A stretch of 64,000 bases of DNA from a virus, in IMG/VR virus record IMGVR_UViG_3300031753_000004, positions 8,097-72,096 of that record; one strand, given 5' to 3'. Each line of letters begins with the position of its first letter. The first letter of the stretch is position 1. Shown here in pieces: positions 3,800-37,334 of this stretch. A program made the translations under genes and the position numbers. The notes beneath the pieces are model-generated. The model searched no databases, was not told where the DNA came from, and worked only from the letters and a program-made list of their open reading frames with translations.

Positions 3800-3802
3800 G
3801 AG

Positions 3803-4285: not shown

Positions 4286-4316
4286 TGCTGCTCCTTAGCC
4301 TAGAACCGACTCCCCC

Positions 4317-4754
4317 CTACTTGTCGAAAGCCTCCACTAGCAGGTTGCACGGTGCCACATCTGCCTTGGCTGCCAGTACGGTCACTACCCTGTCTGCCGA
4401 TCCTGTTCCCGTACCCGGTATCAACTCTCGGTTGATGAAGCGGGAGAGGCGGACCACCGTGCTCTCCCCAGGCAGCAACTCCAGGAACGGGTAGAACACC
4501 GCAGCGTCTTGGTCGTAGATGCCGATCATCACGAAGTTCGTCTGGTCGTAGTTCTCCATCCGTGCCCAGCCTCCCAGCGTGGCAAGGTTGGCGAGGGTGA
4601 TGACCGTTATATTCGTGGCGATGACCACCATGCCAGGCGTGGGACCGCTTGTGCCGAGGAAGTCGGCGGCGAAGGCGTTGGGCCTCGTAGGGCCGTAGCT
4701 TATGTTACCCTTGTTGATTGTCAGGCTCACCCGTACCTGTATCTCTGCCGCCAT
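4317..4754 (-). CDS. Putative virion structural protein
   Basis: Probable start MAAEIQVRVSLTINKG at 4754; beta-rich; contains PGTGTGS. Confidence 0.5.
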   Translation of the reverse strand: MAAEIQVRVSLTINKGNISYGPTRPNAFAADFLGTSGPTPGMVVIATNITVITLANLATLGGWARMENYDQTNFVMIGIYDQDAAVFYPFLELLPGESTVVRLSRFINRELIPGTGTGSADRVVTVLAAKADVAPCNLLVEAFDK

Positions 4755-4764
4755 GTCTGCCTCA

Positions 4765-5733
4765 CTAAAATTGGACGGGAATCCCCAATTGCAACAGATC
4801 CCCATCCTGGTAGTACTGGACGGGTATCTTGCCTGGACCGCCTGCGAACGGGGAAGTACCGACTGGGTTGCCGAGATCGGCCGGGAGACCGTCACCGTTC
4901 AACACGACGTTGGCCGGGTTGCCGTTGAAGTCCACGAAGCGGATGAAGTCCTTTGGGTCCTGCGAATCTGCGTCATCATCGGCCTCGTAGCCTCCATAGT
5001 TTTCGTCGGCTAGATCAGTAATCCACTGCCCGCGCAGAACCTTAGTGCCCTCGTCCAACAGTTCCCGGTCGAACCCGTCCGCCTTGAGATCGAAGGTGAA
5101 ATTTCGCTCGTAGTAGACGAAGCACGTCCCGTAGAACTTCCGCTCCCAACTGAAGTCGCTGAGCTTTATGCACCTAGCATCCAGACCCCAAAGCGGGTAG
5201 GCGTTGACGGTGTCCCGCAGACCCTCGCAGGTGGCCAGGTCGAGGTTGGGCACGTTCTGACTTATCTTGATCTGCCCCCGGTTCTTGTCGAACTCAGCCT
5301 TGGGTCCGTGAAATAGCTCGAAGGCCGAGTTCGTGATCGGGTTGCCGTCCTTGTCGTATACCACCTCTTCCTGGTAACGAACCGAGCTGCCGCTGACTCT
5401 CTGCGGGGTCAGGAGCGGGTCGGATATCTCCTGCTCGGGGCAGAACTTCCACCACGGTTGCGTCGTGAATGTGTTCGTCACCTCGAACTGGGTGTTGCGC
5501 TCATCATCCACCGCTGGGACTACTTCCATGTCGAACTTGCAGAAAGCGTAGATGTCGATGTCCTGCGCGTAGAACCAGAAGTTTCCGGGGATGGGCAAGC
5601 CAGGAGTCTGCATGACGTTGGCCGGGCCGTCGAAGGTATCGCACTGCACTTTCTGCGTGAGCTTGTAGGTGCGGTGGCCTATCTCGCTCCGAGTAGCGGA
5701 CCACTTCGCCGGGCCTAGAAGTATGCAGGTCAC
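4765..5733 (-). CDS. Putative distal tail / baseplate hub protein
   Basis: 322 aa immediately downstream of the tape measure gene (synteny). Confidence 0.5.
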   Translation of the reverse strand: MTCILLGPAKWSATRSEIGHRTYKLTQKVQCDTFDGPANVMQTPGLPIPGNFWFYAQDIDIYAFCKFDMEVVPAVDDERNTQFEVTNTFTTQPWWKFCPEQEISDPLLTPQRVSGSSVRYQEEVVYDKDGNPITNSAFELFHGPKAEFDKNRGQIKISQNVPNLDLATCEGLRDTVNAYPLWGLDARCIKLSDFSWERKFYGTCFVYYERNFTFDLKADGFDRELLDEGTKVLRGQWITDLADENYGGYEADDDADSQDPKDFIRFVDFNGNPANVVLNGDGLPADLGNPVGTSPFAGGPGKIPVQYYQDGDLLQLGIPVQF

Positions 5734-7766
5734 GCGATGCTCCCGCTCAGGTTGGCAGTGGCTAGAACTATGCTGGGACCACCGCCCTTGTTTGCTGCCA
5801 TAGCTGTGTTGGTGGCGATCTTGTTGAGGACTGCTACCTGAGTCTCCGAGGCATCCTCTATCGCCTCTGCTGCTGGGTCCTTCTGCCCTCCAGCACTTTG
5901 GGTCTCGGTCTTCTTGGCCGGGGCGTTGAAACTAGCCGCATACTCTTGGATATGGGTAAGCGCCTCGCTGGAGCCGAACAGGGCGGCGTCTACCTTCTTC
6001 ATGCCTTCATGGACACCCTTGCCGAATGCCCCCCCGAGGATGCCACCAGTATCGCTCCACTTCTTCTCGCCCTCCTTCTTCTCCTTCTCGCTTGGCACTA
6101 CGCCACCACCTTTGCCTAACTCCTCCTCCTTTCGCTTGCGGAACGCATCGAAGCTTTCTCTCAGCTCTCCACCCAGGTCGGCGTACTGCTTCTTGAGCTG
6201 CTTGGTGTACTCGCTTTCTCCTTCTCCACCCATTCTCTTCATCGTGTTCTCAAACGCATCACTGAAAGCTATAGCTACCCTAGTGCCGATGTCCTGCCAT
6301 TCCCCCTCTCCACCGAAGAGTATTTTGATATTGTTCCAAGTCGCTAACGCGCCGGCGTAGAGTGCAGCCCAGTATCCAACGACAAAGGACCAGTATTTAT
6401 TCCAAGCGGTTGTCATCAAATCAATAACTTGCGAGGTCCATATGCCTATCTGCGTCCAGGCTACCTGTGCCGTCAACTTGAGGTTCTTGAAGCCGAACTC
6501 GATGGCCCATAGTGCCAGTAGTACATCCGACTTGATCTTGGACCAATTGACCGAGGCGGAGAGTCCTATGCTGTCCCATGTCTCCTTCGCTGTCGTCTTG
6601 ATGGCCTCCCACACGTCCTTCAGCCAATCCCAGAATGCGGAGGCAGCTTCCTTGATGGCAACCCATGCAGCCGATCCCACCTGCCCTATCTCATCCGCTA
6701 TTGGAGCGAACCACTCCCAGAACTCGCCAGCCTTCTCCTTCACGTAGTCCCAAGCGGCTAACCCCACTTCCTTTATCTTGTTCCAGACTGCTGTCATCCC
6801 CCCTAGGCGGTTGACTAGTAGAGCTATCGCTCCCACCGCTACTCCGATCACGGCTCCCCAACCACTGAAGGCCATGAGCACAGGAGTAATAACCGTCTTG
6901 ACTATAGCCAGCGTCGGCCCGAGCCCGTGGAGACCTAGGAGTAGAGCTGGGAGGCCAAGAGTCACTACCTTCGTTACCTTGTCCAGCGAGCCGAACCAGT
7001 CCACCGCCATCTTGAGTCCGGTGACTACCGGGTTGAAGACCGTCGCCACGGCACCACCAAGATCGATGAAGAGTGCGTGGAAAGAGTGTTTTAGGTGCTC
7101 GATCTTGCCGACGCTGCTCTCTGTCTCTGCCTCAGCCACCTTCAGCCCACTGGCGATGAGGTGTTGCGCCTTGGCCACCAGCTCCGACTCGTCCTTGATC
7201 CCACGGAGTCCAGGTATTCTCCTCAGCAATTGGACATTACCCTGCTCCAGCGCTGCCGTTACCCGGATGTAGGTGCGAGACAGCTCCTCATTTCCCTTGG
7301 CTAGCCCGATGGCGTTCTTCACTACCCTCTCCGCTGCGTCTCCGCTGAAGCCCATCACCTCGGCCTGCTCCAGCATGGACCGGGTAGCCCCCTTGGTGAC
7401 TAGGCTGTGCTCGGCCACCTCCTTGCCGAACTCCTTGTAGCGGGCTAGCAGTGGCTCTACTGCGTGGCCGTTAGACTCTATGGCAGCGGTCAGCCGTATG
7501 GTGCTCTTCTCGAACTCTCCAAAGGCTCCGAACGCCTCCTTGAACCACTCGCCAGCCCCAAGCAACTCCAGCGCTCCGAGAGCGGAGTGAGCGAACCCCT
7601 TCAGGCTGTTGGAGTGCCCATCGATTTGATGGGCCGCCTCCTCCACTTGGTGGGCAGAATGCTGCGTCTCGGTCACGGCGTCGGTGAGCATCTTCTGATA
7701 CTCAGACCCGTCGCCGAGGAGCCGGACCACGATGGCCTCAAGTTCTGTCTCTGCCCCGCCAGCCAT
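5730..7766 (-). CDS. Tape measure protein
   Basis: Ala/Gly-rich helical protein; N-terminal LEAIVVRLLGDGSEYQKML; central hydrophobic segments and periodic Trp (AWDY, FWEW, AWVA, FWDW, VWEA, TWDS); follows tail chaperone. Confidence 0.85.
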   Translation of the reverse strand: MAGGAETELEAIVVRLLGDGSEYQKMLTDAVTETQHSAHQVEEAAHQIDGHSNSLKGFAHSALGALELLGAGEWFKEAFGAFGEFEKSTIRLTAAIESNGHAVEPLLARYKEFGKEVAEHSLVTKGATRSMLEQAEVMGFSGDAAERVVKNAIGLAKGNEELSRTYIRVTAALEQGNVQLLRRIPGLRGIKDESELVAKAQHLIASGLKVAEAETESSVGKIEHLKHSFHALFIDLGGAVATVFNPVVTGLKMAVDWFGSLDKVTKVVTLGLPALLLGLHGLGPTLAIVKTVITPVLMAFSGWGAVIGVAVGAIALLVNRLGGMTAVWNKIKEVGLAAWDYVKEKAGEFWEWFAPIADEIGQVGSAAWVAIKEAASAFWDWLKDVWEAIKTTAKETWDSIGLSASVNWSKIKSDVLLALWAIEFGFKNLKLTAQVAWTQIGIWTSQVIDLMTTAWNKYWSFVVGYWAALYAGALATWNNIKILFGGEGEWQDIGTRVAIAFSDAFENTMKRMGGEGESEYTKQLKKQYADLGGELRESFDAFRKRKEEELGKGGGVVPSEKEKKEGEKKWSDTGGILGGAFGKGVHEGMKKVDAALFGSSEALTHIQEYAASFNAPAKKTETQSAGGQKDPAAEAIEDASETQVAVLNKIATNTAMAANKGGGPSIVLATANLSGSIA

Positions 7767-27556: not shown

Positions 27557-27615
27557 CTGTGGGTCTCCTTATTCGGCAAGCGTGGAAACACTTCATATGA
27601 ACGTATCAGTATGTG

Positions 27616-28896
27616 TTAGGCCGTGGTTGCATGCAAAATCCCGGTTCTGCTGCTGTAGTCGCTCCTCAGACGCGGCACCTGAATGCAAAGGCACTTAAAG
27701 CACAGCTCCAGTCCGCCCTTCTGCTCCCACTGGACCGTGGTGATGTCCATGCCGTTGATGGCCTGTGCCACCTCGGATGTCATCTGCACGATCACGAAGG
27801 TGTAGAGGTGCGCTGGGATGGCGACACCCGCCCAGGTTGCCGCCACACCCAGCATGCGGTCAAGGCGACGAACGTCCAAAATGTCCGGATTCTTGAGGAG
27901 CATCGTACGCAGGGTCTCGCCGGGGTTGTTTCCGCCGGAGACCGCGTAGACCCGGTTCATGTACTGCGTCCAGTCCGTCGAGTGATAGAGGACGAACGGA
28001 CCATAGAACCCCTGGAGGTAAATCTGGTCGAGGGCCGCCAGCACTTCGTTGTGGGTCGTGTCCGGCACCCAGCCGCCCGTTACGGGAGAGGTAATGTTGG
28101 TCTTGGTCAAACGCTGCGGGAAGTTGGTGTAGCCGTAGACCGTGCTGGTGCCTGTGTGCGTGCCAGGCCCGGCGGTCTGCGTGGCGTAGGTGACGCCGGT
28201 CACGTTGCCGATGAGCGTGTCCTCGATCATCTCACCTACCCGGCGGCCAGCAGCTTCACCCATGACCGTGTCAAGCGGGGTGTTGCTGTTCCGGGACACC
28301 ATCAGCTCGCGGGAGCTGTAGCCGAAGTCCGAGTGGGTAATCGGCAGGGGCAGCGAACGGAGGATGAAGAGTGGTGTATCGTTCCGGCCAGCGGTGCGAG
28401 CGTCCATGTCCACCACGGCCTCGCCGGGGTCGGACATGGCCTGGTATTCGAGGGTCATCTTGCCCATCGCGTTGAACCCGCCGAAGCTGGAGGCTTCAAG
28501 CAGGTCGTTCCATGCCTTCAGGCGCTGGCGGGCGGATCTCACCACCTGGCGGTCGAGCTGTATCCAGTCCTCCTTCCGCAGAGTGGTGGCGTTAGTCACC
28601 ATCGGAAGGTTGTAGCCCTGGTTCCGCAGGTCGTTCGTTAGGTAGCGGCGGAGTAGGGGACGGCGCTCGCCACCAGTGCTGTCGTTCCTGGTGAACCCGC
28701 CCTTCAGGTCGGTGATGGCCACGCATGATCGCCCCCGGTCGTCGAGGAAGGGGCGTCGGAGCCTCGACCAGTTACGGTCAGGCATACTCCCGCCCTGCGG
28801 CAACTGGTTGAAGACGCTGGACTGGTTCTGGTTCCAGGTTGGACCGTAGTGGTCAACCATCTTCGGGTTGGCGACGAATCCGTCGAGCAGGGGCAT
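27616..28896 (-). CDS. Major capsid protein (HK97 fold, encapsulin/linocin-like)
   Basis: Start MPLLDG at 28896 with GGAGG RBS; NATTLRKEDWIQLD, LPLPITHSDF, YGYTNFP, FYGPFVLY, ITTVQWE, IQVPRLRSD. Confidence 0.85.
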   Translation of the reverse strand: MPLLDGFVANPKMVDHYGPTWNQNQSSVFNQLPQGGSMPDRNWSRLRRPFLDDRGRSCVAITDLKGGFTRNDSTGGERRPLLRRYLTNDLRNQGYNLPMVTNATTLRKEDWIQLDRQVVRSARQRLKAWNDLLEASSFGGFNAMGKMTLEYQAMSDPGEAVVDMDARTAGRNDTPLFILRSLPLPITHSDFGYSSRELMVSRNSNTPLDTVMGEAAGRRVGEMIEDTLIGNVTGVTYATQTAGPGTHTGTSTVYGYTNFPQRLTKTNITSPVTGGWVPDTTHNEVLAALDQIYLQGFYGPFVLYHSTDWTQYMNRVYAVSGGNNPGETLRTMLLKNPDILDVRRLDRMLGVAATWAGVAIPAHLYTFVIVQMTSEVAQAINGMDITTVQWEQKGGLELCFKCLCIQVPRLRSDYSSRTGILHATTA

Positions 28897-28967
28897 CTCT
28901 GTTTCCTCCCTCTCCTGTGTTCCGTTGAGTAAAAGCCTCTTACACGAGTCCCTCTTCCGAGAGGGGG

Positions 28968-29447
28968 TTACAGTTTCTTCACCCAGGTCAAGTTGCTCCC
29001 CGCCACCTGAGTCAGCACCTCCAGGCAGATAGCCCAAGGCTGTCCAGGCGTGGTACTGGCAGGGACAAGGATGCCTGTCTCTGCATCCTGCATGAGCACA
29101 TCACCTATGGCATAGGTGTTGCCCGTGCCGGCCACCTCGCCGAGCAGACAGTTGAGTTCGTCACCCGGTATGGGGTGGTAGAGGAAGCACCGGGCACCGC
29201 TGACGTAGGCCGTGGTCATCGAGAGACCTTGCAGGAGATCCTCCCGCAAGACCGCACTGCCCTTGTTGAGACCGTCCGTGGCGCTGTTGGCCGCGATCCA
29301 GCTCCAGCGGCCGGAGCCAGACGACAGAGCGATGGTCGGGTCGATCTCCATAATGGTGCCTGGAGAGGACGTATCGAGGATCGTCCCCTCCTCGTAGTTC
29401 CCTCGGGCGTCGGCCGGGAACACAACGATTCGATTACCCCTTGCCAT
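28968..29447 (-). CDS. Head decoration / capsid cement protein
   Basis: 159 aa between protease and capsid genes; PGDELN, IGDVL. Confidence 0.65.
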   Translation of the reverse strand: MARGNRIVVFPADARGNYEEGTILDTSSPGTIMEIDPTIALSSGSGRWSWIAANSATDGLNKGSAVLREDLLQGLSMTTAYVSGARCFLYHPIPGDELNCLLGEVAGTGNTYAIGDVLMQDAETGILVPASTTPGQPWAICLEVLTQVAGSNLTWVKKL

Positions 29448-29507
29448 TAGTTAGACTCCTCTTCTCTGTTCCGTATGGATAAGTCCCGAGCCTCACGGCA
29501 AGGGGGT

Positions 29508-31943
29508 TTACATCGCCTCTTTCTCAGGCTCGTGCTCCTCGTCCTCACCGCCCACGTCTTGACCAGCCGTGTCCTTGCCCGACTTGTTGCGGATGGACCG
29601 CCGATAGATGCCGCCCGTGTGCTCGGCCGTCAGCGGGAGCACGTCGGCAGACTCGTTCTCAGTCAGGCCGTAGGAACCGGGACCACCCGCAGCCAGGCCG
29701 TAGTTGGCGACCGGATAGCTCTCGTCGAGGTAGTCTTCATTGGCCGTGGGGATCAGGCTCACAAGCAGGCGCAGCTCGCTGAGGTCCTTCTGCATGAATT
29801 GGTTGCCGATGGCTTGGCGGTCCTCGGGACGGACGTTAGTGATGAGCCTGGTGACGAGTTTGATCTTCTGCTCACGCACGGCTCGCAGGTTCTCCCTCGC
29901 CGCCTCCTTCACCGGGGCCGGTACGTTGGGGTCGTTGAACCAGGCGTTCATCACCGCGCGGGAGTTGCCCTTCGGCCCGTCCTTTTTCTCGATCTTGACC
30001 CCTTGCTCGTCGTACTCGTCCTCAATCTCCTTGTGCTTCTTGCCCTCGTCATCCACGGCTTGCCCCTGCTCGGGCTTCTCCTCGGTCATGACGTTGGTCT
30101 TAGCATTGCCCACCGGAGCCTTGGCGATTTCCCCGAGCAGGCGCTTGAGTTCGTCGTCGCTCATCCGGTTGTAGGCGAGCTTGTCCTGCTCGCACGCGCA
30201 GTTGGCGGTCAGGAGCCGGAGCGCCTGCCCTCTGCTGTATCCGACTGTTCCGAAGTTAGGCATGGTGGTCTCCTGTTCCTGATTTCCGATCATCGACGCT
30301 TGATGCAGACTCGCCGCCTTCCGGTGAAGCGCTGCCGCGTTATCGTGTTGGTCCGCTGTATTGGGGTCTTTGTTCTTGCGTGCATCCGTGGCCGCGTCCT
30401 CATGGGCCTCGGCCGCCTTGGTGTGGAAGCTGGCCGCCTTCTTGCTATTGCCTTCCTTGCTATGGTCCACTGCTGCCAGCGCCGGCTCGCGCGCCGGGGG
30501 ATGCTCTGCCATGAGCGATGCACCAGCGGCTTGCTTGCTGGCGTCGTGCGCCGGTGGCACTGGGGGCGGATTGAACTGACTAGGCGGTCCCATAGGTATC
30601 CCCTGTGGTGCTTGGTTGTGTGCGCTCAAAGTGCTGATGTCCCCACCACTGCCACCGCCCAGTGTTGCTCCGGAGCTACCACCTCCAGCCCCACCAGCGA
30701 AGTTGTCCTCCAGAGCATCCTTTGCTTTGCCGCCCTTGAGCGCGGTTTCGTTCATCTTGTTCCACTCGTCGTTCGTGAGGTCGGTCTCATGGTGGGTCTC
30801 GGCAGGAGGCTTGGGATTGCCTGGGACGTACTGTTGATCTAGTGCCAGAGGCTTCTCGGGGTGCTCATCTCCGTACCAGCCTCCGTAGCCATCCTTCGCG
30901 GCCTCATGCACGTCGCCCTTTCCTGTTCCGGCCCCGTGTTCCATGTACTGCCCCGTCTCTGGGTGCTGAGGGTTGCCGTACTTGCCGGCGTTGACGCTGA
31001 ACCAATCCATGAAGCGCTCGAGGAGAGTCTTGGGCATGGCATTAACGGCAGGACTATGGGCTTTTGCAGCAGCCATGTGAAGTTCCGCCGCCTTGGTGTG
31101 TAATGCTGCCGCCGCCGGGTAGCCCATCTCGGTTTCCCTAGCCGCTGCTGCCGTATGGAGCTTGGCCGTGTCCTCGTGGGCTGCTTTAGCAGACCCATGC
31201 TGCTGCTTATCCGAAGCCATCAGCGCGTGAGTTGATGAGCGAGCGGTGTATTCGGCATCGACGTTCGTCTTGGCTTTGTCTAGCTTGTGGCTATCTGCCT
31301 CCATCGTTGCTTGATGGGCATGTTTGGTAGCCGTACTAGGACGAGGCCCAGACCCAGGACCACCGTTCACCATCACCCCGCAACCCTGCTCGTTGGAACA
31401 AGCGCCCTTCTGGTCGGGAAGTATGGCGATGTGATCGGGGCGGTAGTTGCGCGCCGTGAACTCATAGGGGGTGCCGTTGTGAGTGGTGCCTTCCGGCACC
31501 GCTTCGTTGTCTGTGAAGAGCCCGGTCGATAGTTCAATGGGCTTGTTCTTGAGCAGGCGCGGCAGAATTGGCTCAACGCCGCGATTCACCAGCTTGTTGT
31601 CTACCTGTCGCGTCTTCTCTTCATCGAACCAGCCTTCGCTGAGCATCTTCCCGTTGATGTGCGTCTTCCGGTTAAAGCCGATGCCCCAGTTCTGGATGAT
31701 GCCGGGGTCGCGCGCGGAGACATGCCTACCCTGAGAATCGGTAGGATGCCACACCACCAAGGGCATGTAATCCCATGCCTTGTAGCTGTTGCGAGTCTCG
31801 CGCTCTGGGTAGAACAGCGGCCCCTGGCTGCCGTGTAGCACGCCGTTCAGCGGCAGAAGAGACATGGGGGCGACAAGGAAGCTGCGGCCGTTCAGAGTTT
31901 CACGCCGTACCTTGCCAGCCAGGTTGACCGAGAAAATCTCCAT
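29508..31943 (-). CDS. DUF2213-type prohead protease/scaffold with internal His/Ala-repeat inserts
   Basis: VRRETLNGRSFLVAP, PLVVWHP, IELSTGL, PDHIAILPDQKGACSNEQGCG; AAxxHxxAA repeats; charged scaffold-like C-terminus. Confidence 0.8.
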   Translation of the reverse strand: MEIFSVNLAGKVRRETLNGRSFLVAPMSLLPLNGVLHGSQGPLFYPERETRNSYKAWDYMPLVVWHPTDSQGRHVSARDPGIIQNWGIGFNRKTHINGKMLSEGWFDEEKTRQVDNKLVNRGVEPILPRLLKNKPIELSTGLFTDNEAVPEGTTHNGTPYEFTARNYRPDHIAILPDQKGACSNEQGCGVMVNGGPGSGPRPSTATKHAHQATMEADSHKLDKAKTNVDAEYTARSSTHALMASDKQQHGSAKAAHEDTAKLHTAAAARETEMGYPAAAALHTKAAELHMAAAKAHSPAVNAMPKTLLERFMDWFSVNAGKYGNPQHPETGQYMEHGAGTGKGDVHEAAKDGYGGWYGDEHPEKPLALDQQYVPGNPKPPAETHHETDLTNDEWNKMNETALKGGKAKDALEDNFAGGAGGGSSGATLGGGSGGDISTLSAHNQAPQGIPMGPPSQFNPPPVPPAHDASKQAAGASLMAEHPPAREPALAAVDHSKEGNSKKAASFHTKAAEAHEDAATDARKNKDPNTADQHDNAAALHRKAASLHQASMIGNQEQETTMPNFGTVGYSRGQALRLLTANCACEQDKLAYNRMSDDELKRLLGEIAKAPVGNAKTNVMTEEKPEQGQAVDDEGKKHKEIEDEYDEQGVKIEKKDGPKGNSRAVMNAWFNDPNVPAPVKEAARENLRAVREQKIKLVTRLITNVRPEDRQAIGNQFMQKDLSELRLLVSLIPTANEDYLDESYPVANYGLAAGGPGSYGLTENESADVLPLTAEHTGGIYRRSIRNKSGKDTAGQDVGGEDEEHEPEKEAM

Positions 31944-31986: not shown

Positions 31987-32027
31987 ACGCCCAAAGTATT
32001 TACGGGGGTTAAGACGAGAGAAGTGAG

Positions 32028-32279
32028 CTACTCGACCGCCTTGACATGCTGGTAGTAGGTGAACCCATCAATGATTACCACTGCGATGGTCTCACCGTTG
32101 GGACGTAGCTTGCGCCTGATACTGGAGAGGTGTGGGCGAATGTTGATTAGTCGGCCCATGTCGTCTGGTAGGCAGGCGTGGAGGTCGGCCTTGGTGTGGA
32201 GACGGCCGTCTCTGAGGAGTTGGAGCATCAGTCTTTCTGTAGGCGTGAATCCGTTCGCGCTAATCGGTCGGCTCCTCAT
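32028..32279 (-). CDS. Small winged-HTH protein
   Basis: FTPTERLMLQLL...IRPHLSSIRRKL (OmpR-like C-terminal pattern). Confidence 0.6.
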   Translation of the reverse strand: MRSRPISANGFTPTERLMLQLLRDGRLHTKADLHACLPDDMGRLINIRPHLSSIRRKLRPNGETIAVVIIDGFTYYQHVKAVE

Positions 32280-32571
32280 CCGGCACTTGCGAGTAGTGCA
32301 AGTCGTCATGATGGAAAAGCGGCTGACGTTTAGCAGCCCTCTCCTCCAGTACACGGATCTTTGCTTCGGTCCCAGGGATAGCTCTCACCGGCCACGTAGG
32401 GACCGTGCTCATCTCCCCGCCGTAGTCGTTGCATCGTTCGCCTTTGCATGACTTGGCGACTCGTGGATACAGCACGCGAATCTCAACGCGCCGGTAGCAG
32501 CGCCAGCACAGGCCGCGTGACTCGGTTCCGGGTAGTCTCCGGCAGTGGCGGCAGTAGGGGATGGTGTTCAT
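32260..32571 (-). CDS. Zinc-finger protein with planctomycete-type PGxxxKIxVLxxRA..LFH domain
   Basis: CRHC...RGLCWRCY; AIPGTEAKIRVLEERAAKRQPLFHHDD. Confidence 0.6.
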   Translation of the reverse strand: MNTIPYCRHCRRLPGTESRGLCWRCYRRVEIRVLYPRVAKSCKGERCNDYGGEMSTVPTWPVRAIPGTEAKIRVLEERAAKRQPLFHHDDLHYSQVPDEEPTD

Positions 32572-35500
32572 AGGATTCCCTCCGGCGCATCGCTGGCCTC
32601 GAAGTCATCTAGACTCTTGGCTCCAGACTTCTCGGCAGCTTCCTCAATGTCTTCCTTGGTTCGCTTTTGATCTGAGTCGTCTTCGCCCACGTTGGCCGGC
32701 AAAAATGCGCATCTACAGTTCACGTGCGCCGGGATCATTCCGTGAGCATCATCGATGCTTAGCACAACCCCTTCCATCGGCGAACATTCTTCGCAATTAT
32801 GGACAAGCACACCATTAGCGTAAAACTCCTCTTCATCTTCCACCTGGATGTTGTAGACTGGAAGTGGAATACCAAGCAGTGAATGACCTATTACATCGCT
32901 TTCAGTCAAGAGAGCATAACAATGCCGTTTGAGTTCACGTGCCCCACTTGCAGCACAAGTTTTTATCGACGCACTAAGGGACTCTATCGTGGAGTGAAGA
33001 AGCGCTATTGCTCGTTCGCGTGTTCCCTCAAAGGCAGGAGGGAGGGTGGCTTTAAGTTCGTCTGCGACCAGTGCGGCAAGACATTCAAGAGTCATACTGC
33101 GACTCAAAAGGCCTCCTGCTCTCGCCGGTTCTGTTCCCATCGGTGCTATTCGCTGGCCCGCCGCAATGGTGCCGAACATCCTTGCCCGATTTGTGGGAAG
33201 AAGATCCATCGGTGGGCTAGTTCTATCGTCAAAGGCGATCGGCGCTTCTGCTCCAGATCTTGTTACGAGTCCTCTAGGCAAAACGAGGTCGCTAAGGTCT
33301 GCCTCGGCTGCGGTAAGTCCTTCACTGTCAATGGCTCTACTTCCGACCGATACGCATATTGTTCGGTCAAGTGCCGGGTCAAAACCAAGGGAGGCGAATA
33401 CAGACGGTGCCGGTCCTGCGGAAAGCGAATCCTTTTGGGCGGCTGTGATAAACGCCGTGGCAATATGAGGAAACATTGCTCCGAAGAGTGTCGCCGTCCT
33501 CCAGTTATCCAGAAGTGCGTCACCTGCGGCACTGAATTTAGGAGAGTTCCATCCAACACCAAGAGGCGCTTTTGCTCGTTCGCTTGCTACCGTCGCTCGC
33601 GCCATGAAACCTCTCTTGAGCGAATGGTACGGCTCGCACTTGACAGGCTCGGCATCGCTTACATCCAAGAGGCACGAGTCGGCCGGTTCTCTGTGGACTT
33701 CTTGCTCCCACACACGATGGTCGCTATTGAGGCCGACGGCACCTACTGGCATCGAAACACCGAGAGGGACGCCAGGAAGAATACGTGCCTCTCCCGCTTG
33801 GGATGGCGCGTCTACCGAATCACCGAAGCGGAAGTTAATAATGCCAAGGATGTCGGCAAGCTCATTTCCGACCGTCTGCAATGTCTGTTCTAACCGAAGT
33901 TTCCCGGCCGCTGTCCATCCTTGTTCCGAAGTCCAGAACGGGTGATTGGCGGTCGATGTGTTCCTGCCGACCGCTGTGAGTACGGTCGTCATCGGTCCTT
34001 CGTAGTCTCTCACGAACGTCTTGAGAACCGCACGCCAGCCGCCTCTTGTCCTCACTTTCATGCCGACCAGTATGTCTTGGATCGGCACTTCGCCTTCCTC
34101 CGTCTCGACCAGAGTCCACGCTGGAAAACACACATGGTCGTCCCCTGCCGTGCTCCACTCGACCGCTACGCCGACCTCTTGCACTCCCAGGTCTTCCATT
34201 GCGTCAAGCTGCCCTTCGGCGTGGGCTCGGATAATCTCCGTGCGTGCAACCGCTTCCGCCCTCACCTCCGAAAATCCAACCTCGTCCTCCAGGTCGCCAG
34301 CAATCTCCAAGGGATGCTTTCCTTGCACTAATCCATCTGTGAGGGCTCTGCTGCACTTATTCGACATATCCTCCGTCACGTTCTTCAGCTCATCGAACGT
34401 GCGGTCAGCCAGAAGCCGCACTTTCTCAATCGACTCCGGCTGCGCGAAAGACGACCGCAGGAACTCTTCGCGCGTGCCCCGGTAGAAGTCGCTCACCGAC
34501 TGTTGCGCCTCAGCCGTGAATAGCTCGGGATGCTCCTTGCCCAGCTTGGACATTCGCACATCGTCAAACGCTCTGCCGGCGCCTTTGGCGAAGCCTTCTT
34601 GGATGTATCGCTTCCAGCGCTCCTCTTCGGTTTCGTTGCTGATGAGGGAGAACGTCTGCCGCTTGAGCCACGCCTGGAATGCCTTCACCTTGTCGGTGGG
34701 ATCGTGGAACATCCAGCGGGTGTTGACTACCAGCGAGTATGTTCCTTCGACGTGGCGGAAGGGAACCTCAACGGTTCTGAACTCTCTGGCGTTGGTAGTC
34801 AACATCGGCTTCGGATGCTTCTCGTACAAGTCGTGCGCCAGGTCAATAGCCTGCATCACCCCGCCCGTCTCGTCCAATGCCGCCGACAAGAGAGCGTAGT
34901 ACCAATCGTTGAACCCGTGCGCCTCGAGCGCCATAGCCACGGTCGCAGCGTTCTCTTGCTCCGAGTTGTGGATGAGGTATCGCTTGACACCACCGCTCAC
35001 CTTGCCGGCCGCCTCTTTGACGAGCCCGGTAGCAGCACGGATTGTGGCCAGCGGATCGCGGGCCGTCGAATACGCCAGATATCCCACCGAGGCCACAGGC
35101 AGAGTCCCGGTCACTAGCGCGGGCAGATGGGCCGCATGGACGCCTGCTATGGCGCTGAACTTAAACGCCTCGAATGTGCCGAGGTCGATCTTGCTGAGCA
35201 CCCCTCGGAGTTGCTTGGCCTGCTCTGGAGTATGGCCACGCTCTCGCGCTGTCCTCTCGGCGAGCGCCTGCGTGGACGTGAAGACTGCGAACGCGGCAGA
35301 GATCCCCATCTTGCCGGCGTAGGCTAGCGGGCCGTAGGTGGCATTCACCGCGTGGGGTAAGTGATCTGGCAGGCTTGATACCGCTTTACCAATGCCGTCT
35401 GCTGCGTAGGACTTGGCAAGGTGCTCGATATGGGCAGCGCCGGTGCCTACTGCCTTCAGGCCGGTAAGCATGCCGGAGAAGGAGATCCTACCTTCGCCTT

Positions 35501-36449
35501 CAAGAGAACCGAACTCGCCGCCTTCGCCCCATCTGCCGTGTTCGTCGCGGGGCTGGTCTGGGCTCCAATTCCGAATGACTTGATCCCTGATTGGCATTCC
35601 TGTTCCGCTGCCACCTATCCAATGCTTGAAGGCCGACATGGTGACGGCCTTCATCCCGTCGAACCCGGTCCAGCCCTCCGAGTAGTTATCGTGATAGGCT
35701 TTCTTGGCGTCCTTCGCATTCGTGAAGCCGACCATGCACTTGTGCTCGTCGAACGTACCGTCCTGCCGCTTCTGGTCGATGATGAACACGACCTCGCTCT
35801 CTGGGTGCGGACCTAGAAACACGTCCACATGGTCACCGTCCGCCTCGCTCTCAGTCCTCTTGATGTAGCCGTAGTGGTGGGCCATTCGCTGGACGTAGCT
35901 CTTGCCCCGGCGAAGGTTGCCGGCCGCTACCTCTATGGTGATCGGAAGCCCCTGGACCGTGACATGGCCCTTGCGGTAGTTGCCCGCCTCTTTCTGCTCG
36001 GGTGATGGGTCGGGGTCGGCCTCACTTGCTGCCGCCTCAATCGCCGCTCGTAGATCGCGGTTTACCGTAAACGGCTCTCGCTCCTTCAGCCCGAAGGCGT
36101 CCTCGTCCACCAAAAGCTTGACGATCCTACCCTTGAGGAGCGCAAACTGCCGCTTGATCTTGGCACAGAACGCCCGGCGCATCGTCACAGTTTTTGTCGG
36201 ATCAAGGCGCGATGCCTTGACGCTCGGCTTCTTCTTGGCCTTTTTGTTGGCGCGGAGTTTCAGCTTGTTTGTGGCGATGCGGTTCGGTTTGCGCTTGGGG
36301 AGCTTCTTGCCCTTTGGAGTGTGCTCCTCCCAGCGCTTGGCCATAGCGGGATCGTTGGCGTGCATCCATGCGCGCTGTTTTTCAGATACAAACGGGTTCA
36401 CCGTCAGGGCGTTGGCCGTCGGTCGGCGCTTCTTGGGTCGGACTTTCAT
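32568..36449 (-). CDS. Polyvalent Mu gpF-like head morphogenesis protein with InPase-like domain and an intein
   Basis: Probable start MKVRPKK at 36449; RAEAVARTEIIRA, EWSTAGDDHV/CEEC...IPAHVNCRC (gpF); EQKEAGNYRKGHV...HYGYI...DGDHVDVF...FDEHKCMVGF (InPase-like domain of polyvalent proteins); WSPDQPRDEHGRW. Confidence 0.85.
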   Translation of the reverse strand: MKVRPKKRRPTANALTVNPFVSEKQRAWMHANDPAMAKRWEEHTPKGKKLPKRKPNRIATNKLKLRANKKAKKKPSVKASRLDPTKTVTMRRAFCAKIKRQFALLKGRIVKLLVDEDAFGLKEREPFTVNRDLRAAIEAAASEADPDPSPEQKEAGNYRKGHVTVQGLPITIEVAAGNLRRGKSYVQRMAHHYGYIKRTESEADGDHVDVFLGPHPESEVVFIIDQKRQDGTFDEHKCMVGFTNAKDAKKAYHDNYSEGWTGFDGMKAVTMSAFKHWIGGSGTGMPIRDQVIRNWSPDQPRDEHGRWGEGGEFGSLEGEGRISFSGMLTGLKAVGTGAAHIEHLAKSYAADGIGKAVSSLPDHLPHAVNATYGPLAYAGKMGISAAFAVFTSTQALAERTARERGHTPEQAKQLRGVLSKIDLGTFEAFKFSAIAGVHAAHLPALVTGTLPVASVGYLAYSTARDPLATIRAATGLVKEAAGKVSGGVKRYLIHNSEQENAATVAMALEAHGFNDWYYALLSAALDETGGVMQAIDLAHDLYEKHPKPMLTTNAREFRTVEVPFRHVEGTYSLVVNTRWMFHDPTDKVKAFQAWLKRQTFSLISNETEEERWKRYIQEGFAKGAGRAFDDVRMSKLGKEHPELFTAEAQQSVSDFYRGTREEFLRSSFAQPESIEKVRLLADRTFDELKNVTEDMSNKCSRALTDGLVQGKHPLEIAGDLEDEVGFSEVRAEAVARTEIIRAHAEGQLDAMEDLGVQEVGVAVEWSTAGDDHVCFPAWTLVETEEGEVPIQDILVGMKVRTRGGWRAVLKTFVRDYEGPMTTVLTAVGRNTSTANHPFWTSEQGWTAAGKLRLEQTLQTVGNELADILGIINFRFGDSVDAPSQAGEARILPGVPLGVSMPVGAVGLNSDHRVWEQEVHREPADSCLLDVSDAEPVKCEPYHSLKRGFMARATVASERAKAPLGVGWNSPKFSAAGDALLDNWRTATLFGAMFPHIATAFITAAQKDSLSAGPAPSVFASLGFDPALDRTICVSVGSRAIDSEGLTAAEADLSDLVLPRGLVTRSGAEAPIAFDDRTSPPMDLLPTNRARMFGTIAAGQRIAPMGTEPARAGGLLSRSMTLECLAALVADELKATLPPAFEGTRERAIALLHSTIESLSASIKTCAASGARELKRHCYALLTESDVIGHSLLGIPLPVYNIQVEDEEEFYANGVLVHNCEECSPMEGVVLSIDDAHGMIPAHVNCRCAFLPANVGEDDSDQKRTKEDIEEAAEKSGAKSLDDFEASDAPEGIL
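32796..34130 (-). mobile_element. Contiguous intein (445 aa) in the gpF-like protein
   Basis: Block A CFPAWTLVET, block B TANHPFWT, blocks F/G VYNIQVEDEEEFYANGVLVHN followed by +1 Cys; removal restores the gpF motif WSTAGDDHVCEEC. Confidence 0.92.
32883..33893 (+). CDS. Zinc-finger-repeat endonuclease (Vsr/DUF559-like PD-(D/E)xK C-terminus) nested antisense within the intein
   Basis: Six CxxC...CSxxC repeats, then ETSLE, RFSVDF, IEADGTYWH, DARKN, GWRVYRI; probable start ATG 32922 after AAGAGAG. Confidence 0.88.
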   Translation: MTYYIAFSQESITMPFEFTCPTCSTSFYRRTKGLYRGVKKRYCSFACSLKGRREGGFKFVCDQCGKTFKSHTATQKASCSRRFCSHRCYSLARRNGAEHPCPICGKKIHRWASSIVKGDRRFCSRSCYESSRQNEVAKVCLGCGKSFTVNGSTSDRYAYCSVKCRVKTKGGEYRRCRSCGKRILLGGCDKRRGNMRKHCSEECRRPPVIQKCVTCGTEFRRVPSNTKRRFCSFACYRRSRHETSLERMVRLALDRLGIAYIQEARVGRFSVDFLLPHTMVAIEADGTYWHRNTERDARKNTCLSRLGWRVYRITEAEVNNAKDVGKLISDRLQCLF

Positions 36450-36573
36450 TTCTTGTCCTTGAGCAGGTCCCGTATCTGCCGCAGATAGGCGGAGATGTTG
36501 CACAGAACCAAGAATGACAACACGGCCAGGGTCGCCTTTGCCCACTCATCAAGCAGGTTTTCGTATGCTCCAA

Positions 36574-36927
36574 TCATCGTTGTCTGCTCCTCAGCAACTC
36601 CTCAATATCGCCAAGATCATCTTTGAGCCACTGTTTGACGCCTCGGAACGCCTCAAGCGCCTCCGGGCTGTTGACCGTCACCCAGCGCAGTTCGCTCCGT
36701 CTCCAGTCTGGCTTGTCCTTACCGAGAAAGAACTGGCCCTCTACCCGCCTCCGCAGATCCATGCTGTCAAGAATGTACTCCAGCTTGACATCCTTTTTAT
36801 GGAGATTGCACACTCCCTCCAGCATCAGGTAGTAGGGACGCTCCTTGTTGGGGTCCAGAGGGCGAGCGTGGTACACCCTCAGCTGGACATTCCACTCGGC
36901 CGGCTTGGGGCAGAAGAAGCATTTCAT
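36574..36927 (-). CDS. Hypothetical protein with CxxC/CxxH
   Basis: MKCFFCPKPA...VCNLH. Confidence 0.45.
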   Translation of the reverse strand: MKCFFCPKPAEWNVQLRVYHARPLDPNKERPYYLMLEGVCNLHKKDVKLEYILDSMDLRRRVEGQFFLGKDKPDWRRSELRWVTVNSPEALEAFRGVKQWLKDDLGDIEELLRSRQR

Positions 36928-36932
36928 TTCTC

Positions 36933-37334
36933 TTAGTCCTTGTCTTTGACGCGAGCCATTGCCCACGGTGCCGACGTGTCTTGCTCCCAGTGGTCGTCTC
37001 TCCGCCAGTAGAAGCGACTACTCTTGCTGTAGTAAGCGGCCACCACGCCACGGGTAGGGCTGTACTGGTAGTATAGGTCTTCGCCCATGTGCCGCCAGGT
37101 GAAATCGTTGGTCGGCAAAAGGTAGCGGGGCTGCTCGCCACCATACCCAAAACGAAGCGCTCCAGGTCCAAGCGGAGCCAAGCGAACACCGTTTCTCTGG
37201 TCTTGTTCGGCGTAGGTCCATCCTCCACCCGCGTAGGGAGATTGCGAAGCCTCCGGGCAGCACGGCCTTGGCTGCTGAGCAGGGGAGATGCTAAGACACA
37301 GGGTCGTCAAAACTATCCCAATGGCCGCTCTCAT
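36933..37334 (-). CDS. Secreted hypothetical protein
   Basis: Signal peptide MRAAIGIVLTTLCLSISPA; GGAGG RBS. Confidence 0.5.
   Translation of the reverse strand: MRAAIGIVLTTLCLSISPAQQPRPCCPEASQSPYAGGGWTYAEQDQRNGVRLAPLGPGALRFGYGGEQPRYLLPTNDFTWRHMGEDLYYQYSPTRGVVAAYYSKSSRFYWRRDDHWEQDTSAPWAMARVKDKD

What the first reader, a model, noticed from the sequence alone, without database searches (positions are those of the whole stretch)
32796..34130. Unbroken intein whose homing endonuclease is encoded on the opposite strand, codon-for-codon inside the intein
Seen: the gpF-like gene carries a 445-aa intein with intact blocks A, B, F and G, and excision restores WSTAGDDHVCEEC. The ~330 aa where an in-frame LAGLIDADG or HNH domain normally sits show no recognisable motif. 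The same DNA read on the + strand (32883..33893) is a complete gene: six CxxC..CSxxC zinc-finger repeats plus a Vsr/DUF559-like nuclease, with its own RBS-like AAGAGAG and ATG at 32922. The two frames are exactly in register, so the nuclease gene contains no TTA, CTA or TCA codon although it freely uses other A/T-ending codons (CGA, GGA, ACT). Known: canonical inteins carry the endonuclease in frame, and split-intein 'fractured genes' flank a free-standing Vsr-like nuclease. Inference: this is a third architecture, a double-coding mobile element. The nuclease is expressed from an antisense transcript, uncoupled from late head-gene expression, while its reverse complement is translated as a disposable loop that is spliced out.
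Basis: partly seen in the sequence, partly recalled or inferred. Interest (0 to 1): 0.92.

Follow-up and report, generated by a model that had tools for sequence, protein, structure and literature searches.

The report
Intein with antisense homing-nuclease gene
A self-splicing protein insert (intein) in a phage head-assembly gene carries a complete DNA-cutting "homing" nuclease gene on the opposite DNA strand, codon against codon; the layout is real and kept by selection, but a 2025 preprint already described it, so this is a new example and not a new kind.

Summary
The minus-strand 1325-aa MuF-like head protein (32568-36545) holds an unbroken 445-aa class-1 intein (32796-34130). The plus strand of the intein's interior (32922-33893; alternative start 32883) encodes six zinc ribbons plus an EDxHD/Vsr-like nuclease, in exact codon register.

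The nuclease is real: Pfam DUF559 and MTES_1575 score above cut-off, the profile hits I-Bth0305I (3R3P) at 9e-18, and the fold matches at TM 0.81. The minus-strand interior has no Pfam domain and no confident fold (pLDDT <50, residues 105-364).

The layout recurs in 26 distinct lineages (13 viral, 13 metagenomic) with both intein ends detected. None has a stop in the intein frame.

The nuclease avoids TTA/CTA/TCA far beyond local codon usage: P=0.006 in the window and 1.5e-16 in an AT-rich relative. Nuclease and splicing domain co-diverge (Mantel r=0.73). The closest extein relative (82% identity) has an empty site.

The "third architecture" claim does not hold. Gosselin, Arsenault and Gogarten (bioRxiv 10.1101/2025.01.02.630785) report full inteins with anti-sense VSR-like nucleases in actinophages, and non-canonical nucleases in all their minor-capsid inteins. 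They cite antisense LAGLIDADG inteins from 1998. This scan has also found the layout on other DNA. Splicing, antisense transcription and cleavage remain untested.

The parts
32568..36545 (-). Host gene: 1325-aa precursor with an InPase domain, a MuF-like (phage Mu gpF / minor capsid) domain and the intein. The stop codon is at 32568-32570.
   Evidence: ORF list. Pfam InPase 8.8e-47 and Phage_Mu_F 2.2e-09.
32796..34130 (-). Contiguous class-1 intein, 445 aa: Cys1 (CFPAWTLV...), block B T60-x-x-H63, and C-terminal ...VLVHN followed by Cys+1 (CEEC).
   Evidence: (invariant C1, T60, H63, H444, N445 across 13 lineages).
33825..34130 (-). N-terminal Hint splicing lobe (intein residues 1-102).
   Evidence: AlphaFold2 block means pLDDT 82-96 for residues 1-100, with strands up to residue 102. 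Foldseek hits only mini-inteins, e.g. gp41-1 6qaz at TMt 0.67.
32796..32870 (-). C-terminal Hint splicing lobe (intein residues 421-445, blocks F/G).
   Evidence: Last two and a half 10-residue pLDDT blocks are 92, 93 and 93, with strands at 423-444. My own C-intein HMM hit has E 3.4e-17.
32871..33824 (-). Intein loop that is translated but has no confident fold: the reverse complement of the nuclease gene, spliced out with the intein.
   Evidence: pLDDT <50 for residues 105-364 and low-to-moderate helices at 334-419. No Pfam domain. Same codons only 22.1% identical between lineages against 39.3% on the plus strand.
32922..33893 (+). Homing-nuclease gene, 323 aa plus stop. An alternative in-frame ATG lies at 32883. 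The gene lies at intein codons 80-403.
   Evidence: (homologues start MPF/MPE at the position of 32922).
32908..32914 (+). Weak Shine-Dalgarno-like AAGAGAG, 7 nt upstream of ATG 32922.
   Evidence: Sequence. Some relatives carry stronger sites in this position: L031 AAGGAGG and L021 AGGAG. Function not shown.
32940..33599 (+). Array of six CxxC...C[SC]xxC zinc ribbons, the presumed DNA-recognition module.
   Evidence: Regex count of 6. The cysteines are conserved in the alignment. Foldseek gives only weak matches to tandem zinc-finger arrays.
33612..33881 (+). EDxHD / Vsr-like catalytic domain (IEADGTYWH...RDARK).
   Evidence: Pfam MTES_1575 and DUF559. Profile against PDB: 3r3p 9.4e-18 and Vsr 1cw0 9e-08. 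Foldseek: 3r3p_A TMt 0.81, rmsd 2.3 A. E270, D272 and H277 are invariant.
33825..33893 (.). About 23 codons where both strands encode confidently modelled protein: Hint strands 83-102 on the minus strand and the nuclease C-terminal tail on the plus strand.
   Evidence: Geometry.

Best explanation
This is a mobile intein of the 'anti-sense VSR-like homing endonuclease' type, inserted just before the conserved CxxC of the MuF-like head protein.

Shown from sequence:
- The minus strand is one open frame through a class-1 intein. Its two Hint lobes (residues 1-102 and 421-445) flank a loop of about 320 residues.
- That loop is the exact codon-for-codon reverse complement of a plus-strand gene for a nuclease with six zinc ribbons and an EDxHD/Vsr-like catalytic domain.
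- Protein-level selection acts on the plus strand.
- The only visible constraint on the minus-strand loop is the absence of stops. This is achieved by excluding TTA, CTA and TCA from the nuclease's codons.

Inferred:
- The head-gene mRNA is translated through the loop. The loop stays unstructured, the Hint lobes dock and splice, and ...GDDHV is joined to CEEC..., restoring the MuF domain.
- The nuclease is made from its own plus-strand transcript, starting at ATG 32922.
- During co-infection the nuclease cuts intein-less MuF alleles near the empty site. Repair then copies the intein and the nuclease together (homing).

Origin, as proposed by Dassa 2009 and Gosselin 2025: a free-standing nuclease gene landed in the loop of a mini-intein.
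For: Nuclease identity:
- Pfam DUF559 and MTES_1575 score above cut-off.
- The family profile hits I-Bth0305I (3r3p) at 9.4e-18.
- The AlphaFold2 model has mean pLDDT 78 and matches 3r3p_A at TMt 0.81.

Intein identity:
- C1, T60, H63, H444 and N445 are invariant in 13 lineages.
- The Hint lobes are confidently modelled and match only mini-inteins.
- The N- and C-exteins abut at Phage_Mu_F profile position 78.

The loop is not a domain:
- pLDDT is below 50 over residues 105-364, and Pfam finds nothing there.

Recurrence:
- Loci were collected through the nuclease only. Of 54 viral clusters, 13 have both intein ends antisense in one open frame, plus L031 by eye.
- Of 44 further metagenome clusters, 13 do, plus 4 with one end detected and the frame spanning the nuclease.
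- 0 clusters have a stop in the intein frame.
- In the 13 viral lineages the register is always codon for codon. The other two antisense frames carry 7-31 stops.

Codon policing:
- P(no TTA/CTA/TCA), given the amino acids and the extein's synonymous usage, is 0.006 in the window.
- It is 1.5e-16 in L022, where the extein uses TTA/CTA for 32 of 40 Leu and the nuclease for 0 of 19.
- The summed log10 P over 13 lineages is -41.
- Free-standing relatives carry 136 such codons in 4848.

Which strand is selected:
- Identity is 39.3% on the plus strand against 22.1% on the minus strand, with plus higher in 78 of 78 pairs.

Old association:
- Nuclease identity tracks splicing-domain identity (Mantel r=0.73, p=1e-4).

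Mobility:
- Seven distinct extein relatives have a readable site. Six are empty there, including the closest (L089, 82% identity...DDSV|CPEC...). One (L092/L093) has the same intein with an antisense nuclease.

Precedent for function:
- I-Bth0305I cleaves the uninterrupted target gene next to the insertion site (abstract of PMC3239194 as listed).
Against: - No experiment or RNA data exist for this locus. No sequencing run was listed.
- The simple scan finds no sigma-70-like promoter on the plus strand upstream of the nuclease. The host is unknown, so this is weak evidence.
- The Shine-Dalgarno-like site is weak.
- For the window alone, the open frame has P of about 0.005-0.006. Long chance antisense ORFs occur elsewhere in the window.
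- 4 of 15 full-length free-standing relatives also lack TTA/CTA/TCA, so a single case could pass a filter on arrival.
- The P values use extein codon usage as the null, which may not fit a mobile gene. Some exteins are short (L063: 9 Leu, 3 Ser).
- The Mantel signal is partly carried by one high-GC clade (L006/L007/L008/L034).
- All close pairs were identical, so no dN/dS could be computed.
- Whether the nuclease recognises this particular MuF site is inferred, not shown.
Confidence: 0.85

Rival explanations
1. Safe-harbour squatter. The nuclease is a selfish free-standing homing nuclease that merely sits in the dispensable intein loop. It moves or acts independently of the intein and targets some other site. 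The intein itself is no longer mobile.
For: The same nuclease family is found free-standing in 24 of 54 viral clusters and 21 of 44 metagenome clusters. It also occurs in different host genes: L010 with a weak prohead-protease hit, L063 with no MuF hit, and between DNA-methylase ORFs without an intein in mycobacteriophages. The preprint also derives these elements from free-standing nucleases.
Against: Nuclease and splicing domain co-diverge (Mantel r=0.73). In 11 of 13 viral lineages the pair sits at the same D[DE/K]xx|CxxC site. The intein and nuclease are present or absent together among close extein relatives.
Confidence: 0.08
2. Relic. In this phage the nuclease gene is no longer expressed or active. 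The intein is a fixed, vertically inherited insert whose loop happens still to carry an intact antisense ORF.
For: No promoter was found and the ribosome-binding site is weak. The preprint notes that several VSR-like intein groups look vertically inherited.
Against: The ORF is intact. E270, D272, G273, Y275, W276 and H277 are invariant. The fold is confidently modelled. The plus strand is more conserved than the minus in 78 of 78 pairs. An antisense ORF has no protection from host-gene selection and should decay quickly if unused.
Confidence: 0.05
3. Chance or artefact. The minus frame is open across the nuclease gene by accident of composition. The gene is really a fractured gene with a split intein, or a disrupted pseudogene.
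For: GC is 58.6%. The window has other long antisense shadow ORFs, and single-locus P is about 0.005-0.006.
Against: There is no stop after the N-intein and no separate start for the C-intein. 0 of 26 lineages with both ends detected are broken, including AT-rich ones with P=1.5e-16. True split forms do exist in the family and look different (L009/L038, L146/147, L173).
Confidence: 0.01
4. The minus-strand interior is itself a functional domain, which would make this true two-protein dual coding over the whole 970 bases.
For: Helices predicted at intein residues 334-419 have block-mean pLDDT rising from about 35 to 71. Short conserved strings such as VPVGAV occur in the loop.
Against: The conserved strings are the mirror of the nuclease's EADGTYWH motif. 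There is no Pfam hit. Foldseek hits cover only about 105-150 columns and match only splicing domains. Identity is 22.1% against 39.3%.
Confidence: 0.01

Closest known systems
Full inteins with anti-sense VSR-like (EDxHD) homing endonucleases in actinobacteriophages (Gosselin, Arsenault, Gogarten; bioRxiv 10.1101/2025.01.02.630785; abstract, sections 8 and 15 and search passages read)
   Same: An uninterrupted intein. The HEN region read in frame has no recognisable structure. The antisense ORF is VSR-like and matches 3R3P. Minor capsid (MuF-type) proteins are among the hosts of their non-canonical nuclease inteins. An origin from a free-standing nuclease is proposed.
   Different: This element lies in an uncultivated 72-kb IMG/VR virus of unknown host, not in PhagesDB. 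Relatives span GC3 0.23-0.89. In the text I read and searched, the preprint gives no codon-register or stop-avoidance statistics ('codon usage' occurs 0 times). Its supplements were not seen, so I could not check whether any of its inteins is a close homologue.
Fractured genes: split inteins flanking a free-standing Vsr-like endonuclease gene (Dassa et al. 2009, PMC2677866; search passages read)
   Same: The same nuclease family sits at the same place, between intein motifs N4 and C2. The context is phage. The Hint lobes here resemble the gp41-1 intein from that work (6qaz).
   Different: There the host gene is broken into two ORFs. No passage of the paper returned by my term search mentions an antisense or opposite-strand nuclease ('antisense' 0 hits; 'opposite' only for charges). 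Here the nuclease is antisense and the host frame is continuous. The paper states that Vsr-like nucleases were not known inside inteins.
I-Bth0305I, the EDxHD homing endonuclease of the recA group I intron of Bacillus phage 0305phi8-36 (Taylor et al. 2011, PMC3239194; abstract only; PDB 3R3P)
   Same: The catalytic domain matches: profile E 9.4e-18, fold TMt 0.81, 32% identity. It has a homing role next to an insertion site.
   Different: It is intron-encoded on the sense strand. Its N-terminal DNA-binding region did not align (residues 239-329 only).
Antisense LAGLIDADG homing endonucleases in inteins (Synechocystis DnaX, Chloroflexus SpoVR-like; Gorbalenya 1998 and Gogarten 2002, known to me only as cited in the preprint; papers not seen)
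   Same: The homing endonuclease is encoded on the strand opposite to a contiguous intein.
   Different: A different nuclease family (LAGLIDADG) and cellular hosts.
Canonical bifunctional inteins with an in-frame LAGLIDADG or HNH domain (e.g. PI-SceI, 1vde/1dfa)
   Same: The same Hint fold, and the same insertion point for the endonuclease module between the two lobes.
   Different: There the endonuclease is part of the intein polypeptide. Here it is a separate protein from the other strand.

Membership tests
Class-1 intein (Hint superfamily) | N-terminal Cys/Ser1, block B TxxH, C-terminal His-Asn, and a +1 Cys/Ser/Thr nucleophile | tested here: met
   C1, T60, H63, H444 and N445 are invariant in 13 lineages, and Cys+1 is present.
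Class-1 intein (Hint superfamily) | Hint (horseshoe) fold formed by the N- and C-terminal lobes | tested here: met
   AlphaFold2 block-mean pLDDT 82-96 for residues 1-100 and 92-93 for the C-terminal blocks. Foldseek matches gp41-1, DnaB and BIL domains at E 1e-7 to 1e-5.
Class-1 intein (Hint superfamily) | In-frame insertion in a conserved host site; removal restores the host domain | tested here: met
   Phage_Mu_F profile 3-78 lies before the intein and 78-111 after it. Intein-less relatives read ...DD(S/R)V|C(P/D/Q)xC....
Class-1 intein (Hint superfamily) | Protein splicing activity | not testable with these tools
   Needs expression of the precursor or virion proteomics.
EDxHD / I-Bth0305I-type (Vsr-like, DUF559) homing endonuclease | Catalytic domain homologous to 3R3P/Vsr, with conserved E, D, H and D/K positions | tested here: met
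   E270, D272 and H277 are invariant, and D283 and K286 at least 90% conserved. The motif name EDxHD comes from the literature.
EDxHD / I-Bth0305I-type (Vsr-like, DUF559) homing endonuclease | Site-specific cleavage of the element-free allele | not testable with these tools
   Inferred from the sporadic presence among close extein relatives.
Anti-sense VSR-like HEN intein (Gosselin et al. 2025 preprint) | A contiguous intein whose HEN region, read on the opposite strand, gives a VSR-like nuclease ORF, while the in-frame reading has no recognisable fold | tested here: met
Fractured gene / naturally split intein (Dassa et al. 2009) | A stop after the N-intein and a separate start for the C-intein ORF, with the nuclease gene between two host ORFs | tested here: not met
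   A single 1325-aa ORF with no stop. Split relatives exist elsewhere (L009/L038).
Canonical bifunctional intein | Endonuclease domain translated in frame as part of the intein | tested here: not met
   The in-frame loop has no Pfam domain or fold. The nuclease is on the plus strand.

The most novel reading that the evidence does not exclude
One nuclease cassette (zinc ribbons plus an EDxHD domain) colonises intein loops in every coding geometry:
- antisense in exact codon register (26 lineages with both intein ends detected);
- same strand in the +1 frame, overprinted on an open intein frame (4 viral clusters: L029/30, L036, L039, L042/44/45);
- in frame (8 viral and 2 metagenome clusters);
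- split (L009/38, L146/147, L173).

In the two overlapping geometries the host frame stays open. In the antisense one this is shown to rest on continuing selection on the nuclease's synonymous codons, which is a measurable case of one gene's codon choice being policed by another gene's need to be read through.

The +1-frame and in-frame EDxHD forms, and the codon-policing statistics, were not in the papers I searched or read.
Probability: 0.5. Interest if true: 0.55.

Novelty: new member of a known kind. Interest (0 to 1): 0.4.

Why it matters
This element shows that about 970 bases can serve two genes at once with very unequal constraint. One strand encodes a folded nuclease. The other only has to stay free of stops, because its product is thrown away by protein splicing.

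Three things follow.
- It gives a clean natural system for measuring selection on synonymous codons. TTA, CTA and TCA are banned even in an AT-rich genome where TTA is the main Leu codon.
- It documents how free-standing homing nucleases and mini-inteins merge into composite mobile elements, extending the Dassa 2009 model.
- It explains a class of mis-annotations. Automatic pipelines call the intein a large insert of unknown function and miss the nuclease, or call the antisense shadow a hypothetical protein (see Donovan gp58).

The Hint lobes tolerate a loop of about 320 residues with no predicted fold. If splicing is confirmed, this is of practical interest for intein engineering.

As a discovery it is no longer first. 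A 2025 preprint and several earlier reports of this scan describe the same layout.

Tried and rejected
- Megablast of 32000-37000 against GenBank phages found no match, so no named close relative.
- tblastn of the nuclease against phages gave only distant hits at 25-38% identity. The 0305phi8-36 hit is the sense-strand intron nuclease I-Bth0305I. The Microcystis phage MaeS hit is a free-standing ORF.
- The promoter/terminator scan of 32400-34400 found no plus-strand promoter-like site and no terminator-like site. With an unknown host this decides nothing.
- Sequencing runs: none was listed and no RNA holder was listed.
- dN/dS per strand on close pairs was not possible. All 12 within-cluster pairs of antisense loci were identical over the nuclease. 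I used amino-acid identity of the same codons on both strands instead.
- Leaderless or -10-like motifs ([TG]AC[CA]AT 6-7 nt before the ATG in L006-L008): I considered these by eye in the output. I did not pursue them, because the same bases encode conserved intein residues on the other strand.
- 'Zero broken lineages' is not a test of ongoing selection versus a filter at insertion. Both predict only open frames if MuF is essential. The argument for continuing selection rests on co-divergence and on L022. Its nuclease has the AT-rich composition of its host genome (GC3 0.23) yet has no TTA.
- Script slips: one search picked a wrong N-terminus for the window (corrected). Searches stopped with a Python error after printing the rows used here. 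L031 and L034 were therefore not processed in those two listings.
- Not done: a genome-contig scan, the search for homologous proteins, the search of protein representatives, complex prediction and the atlas search. Supplements of the preprint are closed, so I could not compare my loci with its clusters 60 and 91.
Full report
**What is in the window.**
The minus strand carries one 1325-aa ORF (32568..36545). Pfam finds an N-terminal InPase domain (8.8e-47) and a Phage_Mu_F domain (2.2e-09, above the curated cut-off), plus weak Hint/Intein_splicing hits that bracket a long unmatched interior. The intein runs from Cys at 34130 to Asn at 32796, 445 aa...STAGDDHV|CFPAWTLV ... GVLVHN|CEECSPMEG. The N-extein matches Phage_Mu_F profile positions 3-78 and the first 31 residues of the C-extein match positions 78-111. 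Excision therefore restores the domain without gap or overlap.

On the plus strand, 32883..33893 is a 336-codon ORF. Homologues begin at the position of the inner ATG 32922 (MPFEF...), which has AAGAGAG 7 nt upstream. Its product has six CxxC...C[SC]xxC zinc ribbons and a C-terminal nuclease domain. Pfam gives MTES_1575 8.7e-11 and DUF559 9.6e-10, both above cut-off, and Vsr 3e-4. The two frames share codon boundaries exactly.

**Which strand encodes a real protein in the overlap.**
A profile of 13 nuclease homologues hits the catalytic domain of the homing endonuclease I-Bth0305I (3r3p) at 9.4e-18 and Vsr (1cw0) at 9e-08. The AlphaFold2 model of the window's nuclease has mean pLDDT 78.3. Its best Foldseek match is 3r3p_A, with TM 0.81 on the target, rmsd 2.3 A and 32% identity.

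The intein model is confident only for residues 1-100 (block means 82-96) and the C-terminal residues from about 421 (block means 92-93). Residues 105-364 are below 50, with block means around 24-35 for most of the stretch. Foldseek matches only splicing domains, led by a bacterial intein-like domain, the gp41-1 intein and DnaB inteins, over about 105-150 columns.

I compared 13 lineages pairwise over the same aligned codons. They are 39.3% identical when read on the plus strand and 22.1% when read on the minus strand, and plus is higher in 78 of 78 pairs. The few conserved strings in the loop (VPVGAV) mirror the nuclease's EADGTYWH motif. So the plus strand carries the selected protein, and the minus-strand loop is a read-through spacer. 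About 23 codons (33825-33893) are an exception. There the last Hint strands of the N lobe overlap the nuclease's C-terminal tail.

**Is the open frame more than chance?**
For this locus alone the case is only moderate. Given the nuclease's Leu and Ser content and the extein's synonymous usage, P(open) is 0.006. From the per-codon frequency it is 0.0053. The window also holds 342- and 455-aa antisense shadow ORFs opposite ordinary genes.

The family settles the question. I collected loci through the nuclease alone, so the state of the other strand played no part in selection. I classified them with my own HMMs of the N-lobe, the C-lobe and the nuclease.
- **Viral contigs:** 85 loci plus the window fell into 54 clusters at 80% nuclease identity. 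Of these, 13 have both intein ends on the opposite strand in one open frame. One more (L031) does so by eye.
- **Metagenome contigs:** 80 loci added 44 clusters. Of these, 13 are of the same kind. Another 4 have one end detected and the frame spanning the nuclease.
- **Broken frames:** no cluster has the two ends on the opposite strand in different frames or separated by a stop, 0 of 26 with both ends detected.
- **Register:** in the 13 viral lineages the register is codon for codon. The other two antisense frames carry 7-31 stops.
- **Joint probability:** summed over those 13 lineages, log10 P(open) is -41 by the amino-acid-conditioned null and -29.8 by the per-codon null.

The clearest case is L022. 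Its extein uses TTA or CTA for 32 of 40 Leu codons. Its nuclease, with an equally AT-rich third position (GC3 0.23), uses them for 0 of 19 (P=1.5e-16).

Some caveats apply. Extein usage may not be the right null for a mobile gene. Some exteins are short. And 4 of 15 full-length free-standing relatives also lack the three codons.

**Filter at insertion or continuing selection?**
Finding zero broken lineages does not separate the two, because both predict only open frames if the host gene is essential. Two results point to continuing selection.
- Nuclease identity tracks splicing-domain identity across lineages (Mantel r=0.73, p=1e-4; Spearman 0.60). The pairs have therefore diverged together down to about 30-50% protein identity while staying stop-free. 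Part of this signal comes from one high-GC clade.
- L022's nuclease shares the AT-rich composition of its host genome and still avoids TTA.

**Mobility.**
I searched with the N-extein. Seven distinct relatives have a readable site. Six are empty there: L089 (82% identity...DDSV|CPECAALDG...), L090, L091, L094/95, L096/99 and L098. One (L092/93) has an intein at the same site with an antisense nuclease, at 255.6 bits to my nuclease HMM. L097 ends before the site. This sporadic pattern among close alleles is what homing predicts. I-Bth0305I, the characterised family member, cuts its intron-less target next to the insertion site (abstract listed).

**Mechanism, with shown and inferred steps.**
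- Shown: the two ORFs, their register, their domain identities, the conservation asymmetry, the codon avoidance, the co-divergence and the empty alleles.
- Inferred: the head-gene mRNA is translated through the loop and the Hint lobes splice. The nuclease is translated from its own plus-strand RNA starting at 32922. It cuts empty MuF alleles in mixed infections, and repair copies the whole element.

No plus-strand sigma-70-like promoter was found, the host is unknown, and no run was listed.

**Comparison with what is known.**
Dassa et al. 2009 (PMC2677866, search passages read) described split inteins flanking a free-standing Vsr-like nuclease. They stated that Vsr-like nucleases were not known inside inteins. 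No passage returned by my term search mentions an antisense arrangement.

The bioRxiv preprint of Gosselin, Arsenault and Gogarten (10.1101/2025.01.02.630785; abstract, sections 8 and 15 and search passages read) reports full inteins with an anti-sense VSR-like nuclease in actinophages. The in-frame reading shows no recognisable structure, and HHpred matches 3R3P. [quoted passage not shown] All of its minor-capsid inteins are non-canonical. It cites antisense LAGLIDADG inteins to Gorbalenya 1998 and Gogarten 2002; I did not see those papers.

The window's element meets every feature of that kind, so it is a new member and not a new architecture. It fails the defining feature of a fractured gene, because there is no stop and no second ORF. 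It also fails that of a canonical bifunctional intein.

This scan has also reported the same layout on other DNA: e1-176563, e1-3422237, e1-3440232, e1-5894229 and e1-1359511.

- The element occurs outside PhagesDB, in uncultivated viruses spanning GC3 0.23 to 0.89.
- The register is always codon for codon in the lineages examined.
- Stop avoidance and co-divergence are now quantified.
- The same nuclease cassette also occurs on the same strand in the +1 frame of an open intein (4 clusters; intein frame 0 stops, nuclease frame 1-2, third frame 5-26).
- It also occurs in frame (8 viral and 2 metagenome clusters) and split (3 clusters).

My literature searches found no description of the +1-frame or in-frame EDxHD forms. 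The preprint says that VSR-like nucleases had no intein-associated report other than split inteins.

**Verdict.**
The novelty claim is superseded. I rate interest at 0.4, because the biology is elegant and well supported but already in print as a preprint.

Noticed in passing
L029/L030 (host ORF 2099-4834 +, nuclease ORF 3009-4454 +); L036; L039; L042/L044/L045: The same zinc-ribbon/EDxHD nuclease is encoded on the same strand as an uninterrupted MuF intein, in the +1 frame (overprinted). The intein frame has 0 stops, the nuclease frame 1-2 and the third frame 5-26. I did not find this geometry for VSR-like nucleases in the papers read.
   Followed up: partly
L056-L059, L060-L062, L064, L065, L068-L070, L078, L153, L154: These inteins carry the DUF559/EDxHD domain in frame, in the canonical bifunctional style. 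Hosts include an HK97-gp10-like protein (L056) and a MuF-like protein (L060). Dassa 2009 said that Vsr-like nucleases were not known in inteins.
   Followed up: partly
L009/L038 (N piece 3005-4768 +, C piece 4735-5820 +); also L146/L147, L173: Split form: the N-extein and N-intein are fused in frame to the nuclease, followed by a stop. The C-intein and C-extein lie in a separate overlapping ORF. This is a fractured-gene variant in which the nuclease is part of the N-fragment.
   Followed up: partly
L021:1101-4640 (-): One 1180-aa ORF holds two inteins. The first has an antisense nuclease. The second has an in-frame DUF559/MTES_1575 domain (residues 724-809). The ORF also has a C-terminal ADP-ribosyltransferase-like Pfam domain.
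   Followed up: no
L100 (Mycobacterium phage Donovan, NC_023552.1 39119-39907) and L101 (phage Camster, MW055902.1 37333-38121): The annotated 'hypothetical protein' gp58/gp55 lies on the strand opposite to a 286-aa nuclease homologue (three HMM hits, E 1e-14 to 5e-09). It is flanked by two DNA-methylase ORFs, and no intein lobes were detected. It looks like an antisense shadow ORF annotated in place of the nuclease, in a methylase gene broken by the insertion.
   Followed up: partly
L013 (4016-4708), L019, L027, L040/L041, L043: These free-standing nuclease homologues have 0-1 TTA/CTA/TCA codons and a co-extensive antisense ORF that ends at the gene borders. L013 is AT-rich (GC3 0.28, 1 of 231 codons). 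They may be recent escapees from intein loops, or may sit in inteins that my HMMs miss.
   Followed up: no
L090 and L094/L095 (downstream of the match end, about 3070-3180): Relatives of the window's MuF protein with an empty DDxV|CxxC site carry an insert at a second site about 27 residues downstream, after ...RHPN (the NCRC motif). L094/95 has a weak nuclease-like hit on the opposite strand there (21.9 bits).
   Followed up: no
L028:3390-4682 (-): This antisense-nuclease intein has an extra insertion of about 80 residues inside its N-terminal Hint lobe (alignment columns 57-137).
   Followed up: no
window 27613-28641 (+) and 29475-30842 (+): These are 342-aa and 455-aa ORFs exactly opposite ordinary minus-strand genes (27616-29037 and 29508-31943). 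They are probably chance antisense shadows, and they were useful as a baseline for how long such frames get in this genome.
   Followed up: no
window 35616-35999 (-), residues 183-310 of the host protein: The MuF-like head protein carries an N-terminal Pfam InPase (inorganic pyrophosphatase-like) domain at 158.8 bits. This is an unusual fusion partner for MuF.
   Followed up: no
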